Assembly (NCBI RefSeq): GCF_029948125.1 | Contig: NZ_JASAMB010000002.1 | Span: 262,479 to 326,478 of the forward strand | Origin: Catellatospora sp. KI3 | GTDB lineage: Bacteria; Actinomycetota; Actinomycetes; Mycobacteriales; Micromonosporaceae | Reading direction: 5' to 3' | Length of the DNA: 64,000 bases | In this document: one piece after another, positions 21,231-58,743 of the stretch | How positions within the stretch are numbered: the stretch's first letter is position 1 | Layout of the letters: each line of letters starts with the position of its first letter | Made by a program: the position numbers and the translations under genes | Notes under the pieces: model-generated | Seen by the model: the letters and a program-made list of their open reading frames with translations, nothing else | Told to the model about the DNA's origin: nothing | The model's database searches: none

Positions 21231-21294
21231 CAGTTTCGGGGAGAGTGCTGGAATCCAGGTCGTGATTCCAGCACTCTCCCCGAAAGTGCACGAA
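21231..21294. repeat. Dispersed palindromic repeat family A, copy 1 (variant with inner hairpin)
   Basis: CAGTTTCGGGGAGAGTGCTGGAATC-caggtcgt-GATTCCAGCACTCTCCCCGAAAGTGCACGAA. Shares the CAGTTTCGGGGA...CCCCGAAAGTGCACGAA framework with the copies at 34571, 41943 and 58681. Confidence 0.7.
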
Positions 21295-21370
21295 CAAAGA
21301 TCGGCGCCCCCGCTCAGGACCCCACCTCACAGGGGTTCCGGGCGGGGGCGCCGATCGCTTTCGGCGGCCG

Positions 21371-22414
21371 TCAGGCGACCGGGTTGCGCAGCTCCGCGAA
21401 GTGGCAGGCACTCGGGTGCGGGTCGACCGCGCGGCGGATGAGCAGCGGCTCCTCCACCGAGCAGCGCTCCTGCGCCTTCCAGCAGCGGGTGCGGAAGCGG
21501 CAGCCCGACGGCGGGTTGGCCGGCGACGGTACGTCGCCGGTGAGCCGGATGACGTCGCGGTGGGCGCGGGCGTCCGGGTCCGGCACCGGCACCGCCGACA
21601 GCAGCGCCTGGGTGTACGGGTGCGTCGGCCGCTCGTAGATCTCCGCGTCCGAGCCGATCTCCACCATCTTGCCCAGGTACATCACGCCGACCCGGTCGGA
21701 GATGTGCCGCACCACGGACAGGTCGTGCGCGATGAAGATGTAGGACAGGTTCAGCTCCCGCTGCAGGCCCTCCAGCAGGTTGATGACCTGCGCCTGGATC
21801 GACACGTCCAGCGCCGACACCGGCTCGTCGCAGACGATGACCTCGGGCTTGAGCGCGAGCGCGCGGGCGATGCCGATGCGCTGGCGCTGGCCGCCGGAGA
21901 ACTGGTGCGGGTAGCGGTTGACGTGCTCGGGGTTGAGGCCCACGAGCTCCAGCAGCTCCTGTACGCGGCGCTGCCGGTCGCCCTTGGGGGCCACGTCGCT
22001 GTGGATCTCGTACGGCTCGCCGATGATGTCGCCGACGGTCATCCGCGGGTTCAGCGAGGTGTACGGGTCCTGCATCACCATCTGCACGTTGCGGCGCAGG
22101 CGGCGCAGCTCGCCGCCGCCCATCTTGAAGATGTCCTTGCCGTTGAGCAGGGCCCGGCCGCCGGTCGGCGTCTCAAGCCGCATCAGCAGCTTGGCCAGCG
22201 TCGACTTGCCGCAGCCGGACTCGCCGACGATGCCCAGCGTCTCGCCGCGGTGCAGCTCGAAGCTGACCCCGTCGACCGCCTTGACGGCGCCGATCTTCTT
22301 CTTGAAGAGGATGCCCTGGGTGATCGGGAAGTGCTTGACCAGGTTCTCGACCCGCAGGATCGGCTCACCGGCCGGGCGCGCCGCCGGGGTGATGTTCTCA
22401 ACGGAGTGTGCCAT
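21371..22414 (-). CDS. Peptide ABC transporter ATP-binding protein (OppF-like), operon 2
   Basis: Walker [10 protein letters not shown], signature [15 protein letters not shown], Walker [11 protein letters not shown]. Close paralog of 2024-3034. Confidence 0.9.
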
Positions 22415-23426
22415 CGAGCATCTCCTTAGCGAAGTGGCAGGCGCTGGTACGGCCGTTGCCGAGGTTCAGCGAGGCGGGCACGTCGGTGCGGCACACGTCC
22501 TTGGCGTACCGGCACCGGGGGTGGAACGCGCAGCCGGTCGGCGGACGCAGCAGGTTCGGCGGCAGGCCCTTGATCGTGGCGAGCTCGGTGCCCTTGGAGT
22601 CCAGCCGCGGGATCGAGTCGAGCAGGCCCTCGGTGTACGGGTGCGCCGGGTGCTTGTAGAGCTCGTGCACGTTGGCGTGCTCGACGATCCGGCCGGCGTA
22701 CATGACCGCGATCCGGTCCGCGACGTCGGCGACCACGCCCAGGTCGTGCGTGATCAGGATCATGCCCATGTTGAGGTCGCGGCGCAGGTCGCCGAGCAGG
22801 TCCATGATCTGGGCCTGCACGGTGACGTCCAGCGCGGTGGTGGGCTCGTCGGCGATGAGCACCTTCGGGTCCATCGCCAGCGCCATCGCGATCATGACGC
22901 GCTGGCGCATGCCGCCGGAGAACTGGTGCGGGTAGTCCTTGATCCGGGCCTTGGCGGCCGGGATCTTGACCAGGTCCATCAGCTCGACCGCGCGGGCCAG
23001 GGCGTCCTTCTTCGACATGCCCGCGCGGGTGCGCAGGGTCTCCGAGATCTGCCAGCCGACCGGGAACACCGGGTTCAGGGCCGAGAGCGCGTCCTGGAAG
23101 ATCATCGAGATCTCCTTGCCGCGCACCTGGCGACGCTTCTCCTCCGACATGGTGAGCAGGTTCTCGCCCTTGTAGAGGATCTCGCCGCCGGGGATCTTCG
23201 CGGGTGGCATGTCGAGGATGCCCATGATCGCCTGCGCGGTCACCGACTTGCCCGAGCCCGACTCGCCCAGCACCGCCAGCGTCTCACCGGGGTTCAGGTG
23301 GTACGACACCCCGTTGATGACCCGGGCGACGCCGTCGCGGGTGTGGAACTCGACGAAGAGGTTCTTGACCTCGAGCAGAGCGTGCCCGGTGGGCACGTGG
23401 CCCGGCTGTACCTGGATGTCAGTCAT
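22398..23426 (-). CDS. Peptide ABC transporter ATP-binding protein (OppD-like), operon 2
   Basis: MTDIQVQPG... Walker A GESGSGKS, signature [10 protein letters not shown]-terminal Cys motif. Overlaps the downstream ATPase by 17 nt. The track fuses it in-frame with upstream sequence. Confidence 0.88.
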
Positions 23427-23431
23427 GTGGA

Positions 23432-55641: not shown

Positions 55642-55722
55642 GTGTGGCAGCAGGACGCACCCCGGTCGAGTGCACCCGCTGGGAGAACCGTGTGAGTCGC
55701 CTGAGCGGACTCAAAACGCAGG

Positions 55723-58533
55723 TCAGCCGGTGTTGCGCATGCCGGCGGCGATGCCGTTGACGGTCGTCAGCAGCGCCCGCTCCAGGGTCGGGTCGGTGGT
55801 GGGGGCCCGGCGGCTGCCCGGGGCGGTCGCGATCGCCCGCCCGGCCATCCCGGCGTCGCGGTACTGGCGCAGCATCGCCACCTGGAGGTGGTGCAGCGGC
55901 TCCAGGTAGGTGTCGCGCACGGCCAGGGTGCGCCGGAGCACCGGCTGGGCGTCGAGCAGGGCGGGTTCGCCGGTGATGGCGAGCACCTCGGCGACGCTGC
56001 GCTCGTACTCCTCCTCGATCGTGCCGAAGATGTGCCGCAGCGGCTCGGGGACCAGCGTCTGCACGTAGCCCCGGGCGATGGTGAGGTCGGTCTTGGCCAG
56101 CATCATCTCGACGTTGGACAGGAACGTGCGGAAGAAGTGCCAGCGCTCGTGCATCTCGCGCAGCCGGTCCGACAGCCCCGCCTCGCGCGCGGCGGCCAGG
56201 CCGGTGCCGACGCCGAACCACCCGGGCACGATCTGCCGGGTCTGGGTCCAGCCGAACACCCACGGGATGGCCCGCAGGCCGCCCAGGCCCGCGCCGGAGT
56301 CCGGCCGCTTGGCCGGGCGGGAGCCGATGTTGAGGGCGCCGAGCAGCTCCGTCGGCGTCGCCGCCCAGAAGTACTCCGGCAGCTGCTCGTTCTCGACCAG
56401 CTCGCGGTACTTGCCGAAGGCGGCGTCGGAGACGGTGCTCATCGCCGCGTCCCACTCGGCCAGCGCCTCCTCGGGCTGGCGGGGCGCGGTGTGCAGCAGC
56501 GTCGCCTGGAGCACCGCCGCCACGGTCAGCTCCAGGTTCTCCCGGGCCAGCGCGGGCAGCGTGTACTTGTCGGAGATGACCTCGCCCTGCTCGGTGACCT
56601 TGATGGCACCGTCGAGCGTGCCGTACGGCTGGGCCAGGATCGCCTCGTGGGTGGGGCCGCCGCCCCGGCCGACGGTGCCGCCCCGGCCGTGGAACAGCCG
56701 CAGCCGCACGCCGTGCTTGGCGGCGATGTCGCGCAGCGAGCGCTGCGCCTTGTGGATGGCCCACTGGCTGGTGGTGATGCCGGCCTCCTTGTTGGAGTCG
56801 GAGTAGCCCAGCATCACCTCCTGCACGTCCCCGCGCGCCCGCACGATCGCCCGGTACGGCGCGAGGCTGAGCAGCTCGTCCAGGATCTGGCCACCGGCCT
56901 GCAGCTCGGCGACGGTCTCCAGCAGCGGCACGAACCCGATGGAGGCGCGCGGCGCGTTCGGGTCGACCAGACCCGCCTCGCGCCCCAGCACCGCCGCCGC
57001 CAGCACGTCGTCGACGCCCCGCGTCATCGAGATGATGTACGACTCCACGACGTCCTCGCCGAACAGCTCCTGCGCCGAGCGGATCGTGCCGAACACGTCG
57101 AACGTCTTGCGGGCCGCGTCGGTCAGCGGGCTGTCCGCGCTGGACAGCGGCCGCCGCCCGGTCAGCTCCTTGGCCAGCAGCGCGATGCGCTCCTGCCGCC
57201 CCAGCATGGCGTAGTTGCTGACCTCGCCGACCTGCGCGTAGAGCTGCGCCAGCACCGCGTGGTGCGCGTCGGCGTGCTCGCGCACGTCCATCACGGCCAG
57301 GTGCAGCCCGAACGCGCTCACGGTCCGGATCGCCGAGGCCAGGCGGCCCACCGCGGTCAGCTGCCCGGCGTTGCGGGCCAGCGACGCGCGCATCAGCTCC
57401 AGATCGGCGATCAGCTCGCGGGTGCCCCGGTAGTCGCGGCCGGACACGTGCGCGGTGCCGGCCGCCAGCCGGGCCCGGGTGTTGGCCAGCTTGGCGCGGA
57501 TGCAGCGCGCCTTCAGCCGGTACGGCTCCTCGGCGTTGACGCGGCGGAACCGGTCGGTCACCTCCGGCAGCGCGTCCAGGTCCTTGGCCAGGCTCGCGGA
57601 CAGGTCCAGCGACACCCCGCGCATGCGGCGCGACACCGACACCTCGTTGATCAGGTCCTCCAGCGCCGCCTCGACCGCGCGGATGCCGTGCTCGTGCTGG
57701 AGCAGGAGCACGTCGCGGGTGACCGTCGGCGTTACGTACGGGTTGCCGTCGCGGTCGCCGCCGATCCAGGTGCCGAACGTGAGCGGGCGCGAGGTCGGCG
57801 CGGTCTCGACACCGAGCCGCTTCAGCGTCTCGGCCAGGTCGTCCAGCACCCGGGGGGCGGCGTCGTCGTACAGGTCGCGCAGGTAGTAGACGGCGTTGCG
57901 GGCCTCGTCGGTCGGGTCGGGCCGGTCCAGCCGCAGCTCGTCGGTCTGCCACAGCAGGTCCAGCACCTCGGCCAGCCGGTTGTCGCGCAGCGACGACTCG
58001 CCGTAGAGGGCGTTGGCCGCGTACTCGGCGTCGAGCTCGTCGGCGATGGCGCGCAGCTTGGTCAGGATGGACCGGCGCGCGGCCTCGGTGGGGTGCGCGG
58101 TGAACACCGGCCGGATCGCCAGGCGGCGCGCGGCGGCGGCGATCTCGCTGGCCGGCACGTTGCGCTCGGCGATCAGCTTCGCCGCCCCGTCGAGCCAGCC
58201 GCCGTGCACGGCGCGGCGGCGGCGCAGTTCGCGGGCCCGGTGCACCTGCTCGGTGATGTTGGCCAGGTGGAAGTAGGTGGAGAAGGCGCGGGCCAGCAGG
58301 GTGGCGGTGGAGACGTCGAGCGCGCCGAGCTTGATCGCGGCGGATTCGGCGTCGCTGCGCACCAGCGCGCGCACCTCTTCGACCAGGTCGAGCAGGCCGC
58401 GGCCCTCCTGACGGGCCAGCGTCTGGCCCAGCAGGGTGCCCAGGCGGCGGATGTCGGCGCGGAGCGCGGCGTCGGCGACGTCGGCGGCCTCACCGGCGGC
58501 GTCGAGTTCCGGATCGTAGGTCAGCTCAGTCAC
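55723..58533 (-). CDS. ppc: Phosphoenolpyruvate carboxylase
   Basis: About 936 aa from a GTG start ([11 protein letters not shown]...). Conserved [10 protein letters not shown] and [14 protein letters not shown] motifs, and C-terminal ...AAGMRNTG. Confidence 0.9.
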
Positions 58534-58680
58534 CGCTGGTCCTTCCGCGTCATGTCCCTCTTCGTGCAGTGAAGGACGACGCTGTCCGACCTGAACTCTA
58601 GCCCGCAGCGGCCCTGATCGGCGCTGTGACGCGGACCATCCCACATTCCGCGATCACGCCTCGTGAGGCCACGCGCTTCG

Positions 58681-58743
58681 TGCAGTTTCCGGGAAAGTGC
58701 ACGAATACCGGCCTCGATACCTGCAGTTTCTCCGAAACCGCAC
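58681..58743. repeat. Dispersed palindromic repeat family A, copy 4
   Basis: TGCAGTTTCCGGGAAAGTGCACGAA-taccggcctcgatacc-TGCAGTTTCTCCGAAACCGCAC, in the divergent ppc/mfd intergenic region. Confidence 0.7.

What the first reader, a model, noticed from the sequence alone, without database searches (positions are those of the whole stretch)
21231..58743. Family A: four copies of a ~62-bp dispersed palindromic intergenic element (core GCAGTTTCGGGGAAAGTGCACGAA)
Copies sit at 21231-21294, 34571-34632, 41943-42004 and 58681-58743. All share the half-site GCAGTTTC(C/G)GGGAAAGTGCACGAA and a mirrored right arm ...TTTCCCCGAAAC(T/C)GCAC. Copy 2 is a perfect 26-bp-arm palindrome, copy 3 has a decayed arm, and copy 1 carries an extra nested perfect hairpin. 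The contexts are convergent, tandem and divergent intergenic regions, so they are not simply terminators. This is a REP/MITE-like repeat family or a recurrent operator for an unknown regulator. The strict conservation of GTGCAC and TTTCGGGGAAA suggests protein recognition. The elements create spurious small ORFs (e.g. MQFRGKCTNLGPVSCTFPET).
Basis: seen in the sequence. Interest (0 to 1): 0.6.

Follow-up and report, generated by a model that had tools for sequence, protein, structure and literature searches.

The report
Mobile palindromic repeat of Micromonosporaceae
The four look-alike 60-base palindromes are copies of a small, recently mobile "junk-like" DNA repeat found throughout Catellatospora and Micromonospora genomes. 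It settles mostly just after genes and sometimes in-frame inside them, so it is a new example of a known kind of element, not a gene switch.

Summary
Four copies lie at 21230-21289, 34572-34631, 41943-42002 and 58682-58741. Each is two 19-bp boxes, GCA-S-TTTC-SSS-GAAA-S-TGC, exactly 41 bp apart in inverted orientation (8 boxes found, 0.01 expected by chance).

The window comes from Catellatospora sp. KI3. I recovered 72 full-length copies, nearly all from Catellatospora and Micromonospora. Box spacing is 41 bp in 69 of 72. Boxes are almost invariant (about 3% mismatch) while the 22-bp spacer differs by about 35%.

None of the four window copies is present at the orthologous site in the two closest genomes (90-94% identical flanks). 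One site shows a clean 72-bp insertion with no target duplication.

Copies favour regions between convergent genes and avoid divergent promoter regions (p = 2.5e-6). About 10% sit in-frame inside real protein domains.

Best reading: a non-autonomous mobile palindromic repeat resembling REPIN, MITE and RPE elements, whose boxes are probably recognised by an unidentified protein. A classical operator reading is not supported.

I found no mobilising enzyme and no published description. I rate it a new member of a known kind, of moderate interest.

The parts
21224..21295 (.). Copy 1, full inserted unit of 72 bp. Boxes at 21230-21248 (ACAGTTTCGGGGAGAGTGC) and 21271-21289 (GCACTCTCCCCGAAAGTGC). Lies 3 bp after the purH stop codon, between convergent purH and an ABC ATPase gene.
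   Evidence: RNA fold -47.2 kcal/mol, z -8.8; 32-nt arms. One search shows exactly this segment missing in Catellatospora sp. TT07R-123, with identical flanks CACTGAC / AAAGATCGG.
34572..34631 (.). Copy 2. Boxes at 34572-34590 and 34613-34631, with perfect 25-nt arms. Lies between the icd intrinsic terminator (34492-34527 plus a T-run) and the stop codon of a convergent gene at 34697.
   Evidence: (-47.6 kcal/mol, z -10.6). Absent from the orthologous spacer of TT07R-123.
41943..42002 (.). Copy 3. Both boxes exact (41943-41961, 41984-42002) and the spacer degenerate. Lies between a WecG-family glycosyltransferase gene (ends 41661) and a small DUF397 gene (ends 42345).
   Evidence: Absent from both C. 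tritici and TT07R-123 at this variable spacer.
58682..58741 (.). Copy 4. Boxes at 58682-58700 and 58723-58741 (2 mismatches). Lies in the divergent ppc <-> mfd intergenic region, upstream of the conserved ppc leader.
   Evidence: -24.7 kcal/mol, z -3.6. Absent from a metagenomic relative with the same mfd<->ppc synteny (L097). No family A copy in the 623 bp held upstream of that point in C. tritici, where the upstream DNA differs (L101).
34637..34695 (.). (GCGGC)n-type GC-rich microsatellite directly flanking copy 2. An accessory feature seen next to many family members.
   Evidence: Family-wide enrichment of perfect short tandem repeats in the flanks: 37/143 against 71/749 control windows, p = 4.6e-7.
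41895..41930 (.). (GCCC)n-type microsatellite directly flanking copy 3.

Best explanation
Family A is a non-autonomous, recently mobile palindromic repeat of Micromonosporaceae.

Shown:
- The conserved core is 60 bp, and the one cleanly delimited insertion is 72 bp.
- It consists of two inverted 19-bp boxes at a fixed 41-bp centre-to-centre distance, around a poorly conserved 22-bp spacer whose ideal form is itself a palindrome (ACGAATCTTGG|CCAAGATTCGT).
- Copies arise by copying of pre-existing copies, not by convergent evolution of binding sites.
- They insert without a target-site duplication.
- They survive mainly where they do little harm: downstream of stop codons, especially between convergent genes.
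- Because the unit is largely stop-free and its 60-bp core is a multiple of three, they occasionally survive in-frame in loops or linkers of proteins.

Inferred:
- The near-invariance of the two boxes, the rigid spacing and the orientation-blind G/C positions mean that a protein recognises the boxes. The most likely candidate is the enzyme that mobilises the element, by analogy with RAYT and REP/REPIN. A host DNA-binding protein is the alternative.
- When transcribed in a 3' UTR, the -25 to -48 kcal/mol hairpin probably affects the mRNA 3' end. This would be a side effect, not the reason the element exists.
For: Architecture: 8 boxes in 4 pairs at 41 bp. Among 72 full-length copies the spacing is 41 bp in 69, 40 in 2 and 42 in 1.

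Descent: the box centre is GGG in the left box (54-69 of 69) and CCC in the right box (61-66 of 69). Independent operator evolution would randomise this.

Constraint: in C. tritici, a box that was not the one required for detection mismatches the pattern at 2.9% of positions, against 34.5% for the spacer. In 7 orthologous cross-species pairs, boxes are 91% identical and spacers 68%; the boxes not required for detection are 118/133, counted by hand from that output.

Mobility: no family A copy occurs in 85 kb of syntenic DNA from C. tritici and Catellatospora sp. TT07R-123 at 90-94% identity, so all four window copies are missing there. The purH site gives a clean filled versus empty comparison. 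Other gain/loss cases appear. There is no target-site duplication (observed 2.01 against 1.98 +/- 0.14 in shuffles).

Placement: convergent 22, tandem 24, divergent 3, against 9.9 / 22.6 / 16.5 expected from intergenic length (chi-square p = 2.5e-6). Tandem copies sit roughly 45 bp after the upstream stop codon.

Coding insertions: a PucR-family regulator carries the element in two species and lacks it in C. tritici. Pfam domain matches span the insert in DUF58, NicO, MFS_1 and GGDEF_2, and domains flank it in an NRPS condensation domain and an Ada/AlkA protein. Six of the eight coding copies are read as the same peptide, SFGETA...AVSPKLQ. That frame has the fewest stops: 8 of 138 strand readings, against 33 and 10 for the other two frames.

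No recurrent neighbouring gene was found.
Against: - No transposase or other mobilising gene was found. The tools could not scan whole Catellatospora genomes for one.
- Only one insertion has clean boundaries; the other filled/empty comparisons sit in rearranged spacers.
- Copies within one genome have very different spacers. This is unexpected if they are all recent products of one master copy, and it implies several source lineages or fast change at the palindrome centre.
- The 43 kb of C. tritici sampled without regard to the element held no copy.
- Strong purifying constraint on the boxes at orthologous sites could equally mean a host function.
Confidence: 0.78

Rival explanations
1. The paired boxes are binding sites for a host DNA-binding protein, either a nucleoid-associated or chromosome-organising factor or a global regulator. 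The protein would bind two palindromic 19-bp sites about four helical turns apart. On this view the repeats are kept because of that function, and their spread is secondary.
For: Each box has its own dyad symmetry, GCAsTTTC-N3-GAAAsTGC. In copy 4 this extends to TTCGTGCAGTTTCC-G-GGAAAGTGCACGAA. The 41-bp spacing is rigid despite about 35-47% spacer divergence. Positions 16 and 45 are G or C in 67 of 69 copies each, yet show no pairing preference (35 Watson-Crick pairs against 33.9 expected). By inference, this fits read-out of double-stranded DNA that cannot tell G:C from C:G. Boxes are conserved at orthologous sites while spacers drift.
Against: The sites avoid promoter regions (3 observed against 16.5 expected) and sit after stop codons or inside genes. 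All four window copies are missing in genomes with 90-94% identical flanks. The constant GGG...CCC polarity shows copying, not in-situ evolution of sites. No cognate gene recurs next to them. The ppc leader is conserved in relatives without the element.
Confidence: 0.15
2. The elements are primarily bidirectional transcription terminators or mRNA 3'-end stabilisers, recruited because they form strong symmetric hairpins.
For: The predicted hairpins are very stable, -24.7 to -47.6 kcal/mol with z-scores of -3.6 to -10.6. Copies are enriched between convergent genes and shortly after stop codons. At the purH 3' site, other species carry different hairpins in the same slot: a family B palindrome in L089 and a canonical terminator in L090.
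Against: No T-run follows either arm on either strand in any of the four copies (sequences; no terminator call at copy 4). Copies 1 and 2 sit next to separate hairpins that already fill the terminator role: 21299-21356, and 34492-34527 with TTTTT. A terminator would need only a stem, not invariant 19-bp boxes at fixed spacing. Some copies lie in promoter regions and inside open reading frames. TT07R-123 does without copy 1.
Confidence: 0.05
3. The four copies are a chance or local artefact, either a recent segmental duplication or low-complexity similarity confined to this window.
For: None beyond the small number of copies in the window.
Against: Chance expectation is 0.01 boxes against 8 observed. 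The flanks are unrelated. Sixty-eight further full-length copies occur in other genomes.
Confidence: 0.01

Closest known systems
REP doublets / REPINs of Pseudomonas and BIMEs of E. coli, the REP elements mobilised by RAYT (TnpA-REP) transposases
   Same: - Two short conserved palindromic units in inverted orientation at a fixed distance, able to form one long hairpin.
- Arms conserved and middle variable.
- Many copies per genome, mostly extragenic and concentrated at gene 3' ends and between convergent genes.
- No target-site duplication.
- Genus- and family-specific sequence.
   Different: - No RAYT or other Y1 transposase could be looked for in the host genomes.
- No GTAG-type flanking tetranucleotide is evident.
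- The unit box is shorter (19 bp) and is itself a dyad.
- The host is an actinomycete, whereas to my knowledge REP-RAYT systems are described mainly in Proteobacteria.
- A tenth of the copies are in-frame in coding sequence.
Rickettsia palindromic elements (RPE)
   Same: Palindromic dispersed repeats that insert in-frame into protein-coding genes and are translated as extra peptide segments in loops or linkers. Other copies are intergenic.
   Different: There is no evident sequence relationship; this rests on my recollection of RPE sequences and was not tested. Family A is shorter (60-72 bp against roughly 100-150 bp). It occurs in a different phylum with a 72% G+C genome. The great majority of family A copies are intergenic.
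Bacterial MITEs such as the Correia/NEMIS elements of Neisseria and ERIC/IRU of enterobacteria
   Same: Small, non-coding, with terminal inverted repeats, dispersed and polymorphic between close strains. They can sit in 3' UTRs, promoters or genes.
   Different: No target-site duplication. No parent IS with matching ends was found in plasmids, phages or the fetched loci. The element is essentially only two inverted repeats and a spacer.

Membership tests
REP / REPIN (RAYT-associated) | Short imperfect palindromic units arranged as inverted pairs at a fixed spacing, able to fold as one hairpin | tested here: met
   Spacing is 41 bp in 69 of 72 copies. The hairpins are stable. Spacer pairs 20, 22-25 with 36-41 are Watson-Crick more often than expected, for example 54 against 35.1.
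REP / REPIN (RAYT-associated) | High copy number, extragenic, biased to gene 3' ends and convergent gene pairs | tested here: met
   72 copies were recovered from a truncated scan, at least 25 of them in C. tritici. Convergent 22 against 9.9 expected and divergent 3 against 16.5. A true copy number per genome was not obtainable.
REP / REPIN (RAYT-associated) | A cognate RAYT (Y1 transposase, PF01797) in the same genome, typically flanked by REPs | not testable with these tools
Genes next to the 72 copies show no recurrent family. Whole Catellatospora genomes could not be searched.
REP / REPIN (RAYT-associated) | Conserved flanking tetranucleotide (GTAG/CTAC type) next to the hairpin | tested here: not met
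   Flanking positions carry at most 0.6 bit of information and no GTAG. There is only a weak extension of the palindrome, (GGC)T...A(GCC) or ACGAA(C).
MITE | Terminal inverted repeats | tested here: met
   Arms are 24-32 nt in the window copies.
MITE | Target-site duplication flanking each copy | tested here: not met
   Mean best direct repeat is 2.01 against 1.98 +/- 0.14 in shuffled flank pairs. No duplication is present at the clean purH insertion.
MITE | A related autonomous IS with the same ends | tested here: inconclusive
   No match in plasmid or phage collections, none in viral contigs, and no transposase between paired copies in L071 or L018. The host genomes were not searched exhaustively.
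Rickettsia-type palindromic elements (RPE-like behaviour) | In-frame insertion in protein-coding genes that stay open and keep their domains | tested here: met
   A PucR regulator occurs with and without the insert. Pfam matches span or flank the insert in DUF58, NicO, MFS_1, GGDEF_2, an NRPS condensation domain and AlkA. Coding-like GC3 is seen on both sides. Translation was not shown experimentally.
Rickettsia-type palindromic elements (RPE-like behaviour) | Sequence homology to RPE families | not tested
Rfam gave no hit anywhere in the window.
Transcription-factor operator / regulon | Sites lie in promoter regions of the regulated genes and are conserved at orthologous promoters | tested here: not met
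   Divergent regions are depleted. Copy 4 is absent from relatives although the ppc leader is conserved. Copies occur inside genes.
Intrinsic terminator | G+C-rich hairpin followed by a T/U tract | tested here: not met
   A hairpin is present but no T-run follows on either strand, and the scan gives no terminator call at copy 4. Separate terminator-like hairpins stand beside copies 1 and 2; only the one beside copy 2 has a T-run.

The most novel reading that the evidence does not exclude
Micromonosporaceae may harbour a REPIN-like system that is still active, since gains separate strains with 90-94% identical flanks. Its mobilising or binding protein is unknown and may not be a RAYT. That protein would read two 19-bp dyad boxes held exactly 41 bp apart. 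The system would also remodel proteins by in-frame insertion of a 20-codon, largely stop-free module, giving an actinomycete counterpart of the Rickettsia palindromic elements.
Probability: 0.3. Interest if true: 0.65.

Novelty: new member of a known kind. Interest (0 to 1): 0.42.

Why it matters
- Small palindromic repeats are well studied in Proteobacteria but, as far as I could find, hardly at all in high-G+C actinomycetes. Full-text searches for the core sequence returned only unrelated STAT1 and FadR papers, and two keyword searches returned nothing relevant.
- This family gives a well-defined case with precise boxes, rigid spacing and evidence of very recent gain between sequenced sister strains. 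It also has a clean empty site and verified in-frame protein insertions. That makes the search for its mobilising or binding protein experimentally approachable.
- The repeat also matters for annotation. It creates spurious small ORFs, disturbs gene calls in 72% G+C genomes, and marks hot spots of intergenic turnover next to core metabolic genes (purH, icd, ppc).

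Tried and rejected
- Rfam at gathering thresholds over the whole window gave no family.
- BLAST of copy 2 against the plasmid and phage collections gave no match. The paired-box pattern gave 0 hits in viral contigs.
- Literature searches for the core sequence and for Micromonospora or actinobacterial REP/RAYT reports returned nothing relevant.
- I looked for a transposase between closely spaced copies. 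L071 holds an MFS transporter that itself carries a copy, and L018 holds an ORF I judged by eye to be DUF559-like (not run against Pfam). Neither is a Y1 transposase.
- Clustering of 266 neighbouring proteins found only orthologues and ABC ATPases.
- The target-site duplication test was negative.
- My last protein-database search used a profile of the element-encoded peptides in three frames, to census in-frame insertions. 397 word candidates were collected but none reached E <= 10 in a database of 5.8 billion, so it was uninformative.
- The exact look-up of the window PurH failed. The source strain was identified later through cluster look-ups.
- Resemblance of the box to parS (GTTTC-ACGT-GAAAC) or the Noc site (ATTTCCCGGGAAAT) was considered from memory and set aside. 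The half-sites here are 3 nt apart, not 4, and there are many copies.
- An arm-to-arm snap-back origin (new copies born as perfect palindromes) was considered because copies 1 and 2 are near-perfect. It was dropped because copies 3 and 4, which are equally lineage-specific, are imperfect.

Full report
**1. Observation**

The four copies are present at the stated places. A core search with up to 3 mismatches gives 12 matches against 0.11 expected.

Each copy contains two 19-bp boxes fitting GCA-S-TTTC-SSS-GAAA-S-TGC. The window holds eight such boxes (up to 2 mismatches; 0.01 expected), and they form four pairs whose starts are exactly 41 bp apart. Alignment of the four copies shows that similarity ends at the edges of the element, so this is not a segmental duplication.

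Some details need correction:
- Copy 2 has perfect 25-nt arms.
- Copy 1 is the same palindrome with 32-nt arms, in a variant of the inner stem. It is followed by an unrelated GC-rich hairpin at 21299-21356. It does not carry an extra nested hairpin.
- Copy 3 is degenerate only in the spacer.

Gene context was checked by GC3-based gene calling and Pfam:
- Copy 1 lies 3 bp after the purH stop codon, facing an oligopeptide ABC ATPase gene.
- Copy 2 lies between the intrinsic terminator of an NADP-isocitrate dehydrogenase gene and a convergent gene.
- Copy 3 lies between a WecG-family glycosyltransferase gene and a small DUF397 gene.
- Copy 4 lies between divergent ppc and mfd.

**2. Where the family occurs**

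About 70 are from Micromonosporaceae:
- Catellatospora tritici (most of them), C. bangladeshensis, C. vulcania, C. sichuanensis, C. aurea, C. coxensis and C. paridis.
- About 17 Micromonospora species.
- A few related MAGs.

The remainder are isolated single boxes in unrelated phyla, as expected by chance.

An iterated nhmmer profile found 72 full-length elements, including the four in the window. Exact protein look-ups identify the window as Catellatospora sp. KI3.

Micromonospora copies keep the boxes and the 41-bp spacing. They have a different palindromic spacer (TGCCTC-N10-GAGGCA) and an outer extension (CCAAGATCCGC...GCGGATCTTGG).

Nothing similar exists in the plasmid, phage or viral-contig collections or in Rfam. 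Three literature searches found no description.

**3. Anatomy and constraint across 69 aligned copies**

- Box-to-box distance is 41 bp in 69 copies, 40 in 2 and 42 in 1.
- Box positions carry 1.4-2.0 bits. The 22-bp spacer and the flanks carry mostly less than 0.7 bit.
- The retrieval required one exact box, so I scored only the other box. It mismatches the pattern at 2.9% of positions in C. tritici, against 34.5% for the spacer relative to its own consensus.
- In seven orthologous cross-species pairs, boxes are 91% identical and spacers 68%. The boxes that were not required for detection are 118/133 identical, counted by hand from that output.
- The box centre is almost always GGG on the left and CCC on the right. 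The copies therefore share an ancestor arrangement and are not independently evolved sites.
- The degenerate S positions 16 and 45 are G or C in 67 of 69 copies each, but show no pairing preference (35 Watson-Crick against 33.9 expected).
- Inner spacer pairs are complementary more often than expected, for example 54 against 35.1.
- The ideal Catellatospora spacer is itself a palindrome, ACGAATCTTGG|CCAAGATTCGT, so the ancestral unit was a near-perfect 60-bp palindrome.
- As RNA the four window copies fold at -24.7 to -47.6 kcal/mol.

**4. Evidence for recent gain**

Syntenic DNA from the two closest genomes, C. tritici NEAU-YM18 and Catellatospora sp. TT07R-123, was fetched around purH, a DeoR regulator gene and an O-antigen ligase gene. 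It totals 85 kb and aligns to the window at 90-94% identity. It contains no family A copy. All four window copies are therefore missing at their orthologous sites.

At the purH site the comparison is clean:
- TT07R-123 reads CACTGAC-GT-AAAAGATCGG.
- KI3 has the 72-bp unit 21224-21295 between the same flanks.
- C. tritici has about seven copies of a 19-bp tandem repeat at exactly that point.
- There is no target-site duplication.

More distant relatives carry a family B palindrome, an ordinary terminator or other sequence in this slot.

Copy 4 is absent from a metagenomic relative with the same mfd<->ppc arrangement, although the ppc leader is conserved.

Among the retrieved loci there are further presence/absence differences, but in rearranged spacers without sharp edges.

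A family-wide test found no target-site duplication (2.01 against 1.98 +/- 0.14).

**5. Where copies survive**

Of the copies that could be classified between two called genes, the counts against expectation from intergenic length are as follows (chi-square p = 2.5e-6):

| Flanking genes | Observed | Expected |
|---|---|---|
| Convergent | 22 | 9.9 |
| Tandem | 24 | 22.6 |
| Divergent | 3 | 16.5 |

Tandem copies usually lie about 45 bp after the upstream stop codon.

Coding DNA makes up 80% of the sampled loci but holds only 8 of 72 copies. Those eight are informative:
- A PucR-family regulator carries the element plus linker in C. sichuanensis and C. aurea, and lacks it in C. tritici. Both halves of the protein align well.
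- Pfam matches run across the insert in a DUF58 protein, a NicO-type transporter, an MFS transporter and a GGDEF_2 domain. Domains flank it in an NRPS condensation domain and an Ada/AlkA protein.
- GC3 is coding-like on both sides.
- Six of the eight are read as SFGETA...AVSPKLQ. This frame has stops in only 8 of 138 strand readings, against 33 and 10 for the other two frames.

The 60-bp core equals 20 codons.

**6. What it is not**

*Operator.* It is not a classical operator, given the depletion from promoter regions, the lineage-specific presence, the coding copies and the lack of any recurring neighbouring gene.

*Terminator.* It is not a canonical terminator. No T-tract follows either arm, and copies 1 and 2 stand beside separate hairpins that already serve that purpose.

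*MITE.* It does not meet the MITE criterion of target-site duplication.

*REP/REPIN.* It matches this class in architecture, conservation pattern, placement and lack of duplication. The defining RAYT partner could not be sought with the tools left to me, and no GTAG-type flank is present.

*RPE.* In its in-frame coding copies it behaves like the Rickettsia palindromic elements.

**7. Mechanism, with shown and inferred steps marked**

Shown:
- Copies descend from one another.
- They have been gained or lost since KI3, C. tritici and TT07R-123 diverged.
- One insertion is a precise 72-bp addition without duplication.
- Survival is biased to 3' intergenic DNA and to permissive in-frame positions.
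- The boxes and their spacing are under much stronger constraint than the rest of the element.

Inferred:
- A protein reads the two boxes. A mobilising enzyme is the leading candidate, by analogy with RAYT and REP. A host DNA-binding protein is the alternative. The rigid four-turn spacing and the orientation-blind G/C positions favour recognition of duplex DNA. The partial spacer complementarity and the compensated change in copy 1 favour a hairpin form.
- Any effect on mRNA ends is a by-product.

Unexplained:
- Spacers differ widely among copies of one genome even though insertion is recent.
- Perfect GC-rich microsatellites are enriched 3.3-fold in the flanks (37/143 against 71/749, p = 4.6e-7).

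**8. Verdict**

This is a real and statistically solid repeat family. It is best filed as a new actinomycete member of the REPIN/MITE/RPE class of small mobile palindromes. It is not a regulator's operator. The partner protein and the true copy number remain unknown. Interest is moderate.

Noticed in passing
window 35199-35256; also L002, L012, L023, L026, L029, L047, L048, L049, L055, L073, L077, L079, L083, L089, L102: A second dispersed repeat, 'family B', about 56 bp long. It consists of two direct copies of the self-complementary box AAGAAGGGsCCCTTCyT about 18 nt apart. There are 18 hits in the fetched loci, several within 40-100 bp of a family A copy. In the window and in TT07R-123 (L102 13428-13483) it lies inside a long ORF (annotated as 425 aa in TT07R-123) whose only Pfam hit is a C-terminal CysS_C domain, and GC3 dips there. 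It may therefore be an in-frame insertion or a mis-joined gene call.
   Followed up: partly
L098 11598-11775 (C. tritici), orthologous to window 21222-21296: At exactly the point where KI3 carries family A copy 1, C. tritici carries about seven tandem copies of a 19-bp unit (TTGCTCTGCACCCACGGGC), and TT07R-123 has only 2-3 nt. The purH stop-to-terminator junction is a hot spot for different insertions.
   Followed up: partly
window 34637-34695 and 41895-41930; flanks of 37 of 143 element sides in the loci: Perfect GC-rich microsatellites (GCGGC, GCCC, GGGGC, GGTGG, TGCGGG units, 3 or more copies) adjoin family A copies 3.3 times more often than other intergenic windows. Inside genes they encode Gly-Ser or His-rich runs next to the insert (L065, L023).
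   Followed up: partly
window 42475-42539: Another short repeat at the 3' end of the GH26 glycosidase gene (…GTGATCACGGTGCCAGGGTGGGGACACGCCGTCGGGCACGTCCATAGGTTCATGATCA…). It matches L001, L002, L020, L036 and L060 at 76-89% identity.
   Followed up: no
window 41700-41860; outer ends of Micromonospora family A copies (e.g. L040 3205-3300): An AAGATC-containing motif (CCAAGATCGC / GGAAGATCAC / GGAAGATCGG) recurs several times upstream of copy 3. It forms the outer arms of the Micromonospora version of the element and the inner spacer (GAATCTTGGCC) of the Catellatospora version. It may be a separate module shared between repeat families.
   Followed up: no
window 58540-58660 (minus strand, upstream of ppc); L096 1395-1500; L097 1395-1500: A conserved ppc leader or promoter block (ATGGGATGGnCnGCGTCACAnCGCC ... 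GGACAGCGnCGTCCT) is shared by KI3, a Catellatospora paridis-cluster ppc locus (L096) and a metagenomic relative (L097), independently of family A.
   Followed up: no
L101 1-617 (C. tritici), orthologous to window about 58660 onward: In C. tritici a small ORF plus a PIN-domain gene (a toxin-antitoxin-like pair) lies immediately upstream of ppc, where KI3 has the mfd-ppc spacer with copy 4. This is another sign that the spacer is a site of turnover.
   Followed up: no
L071 4930-4994, L023 2532-2593, L043 7654-7716, L080 4326-4390, L060 3737-3799, L056 6047-6106, L061 861-927, L065 5685-5752: Family A copies lie in-frame inside predicted proteins: MFS transporter, NicO-type transporter, Ada/AlkA, NRPS condensation domain, DUF58, a membrane protein and a PucR regulator. 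Six of the eight are read as SFGETA...AVSPKLQ.
   Followed up: yes
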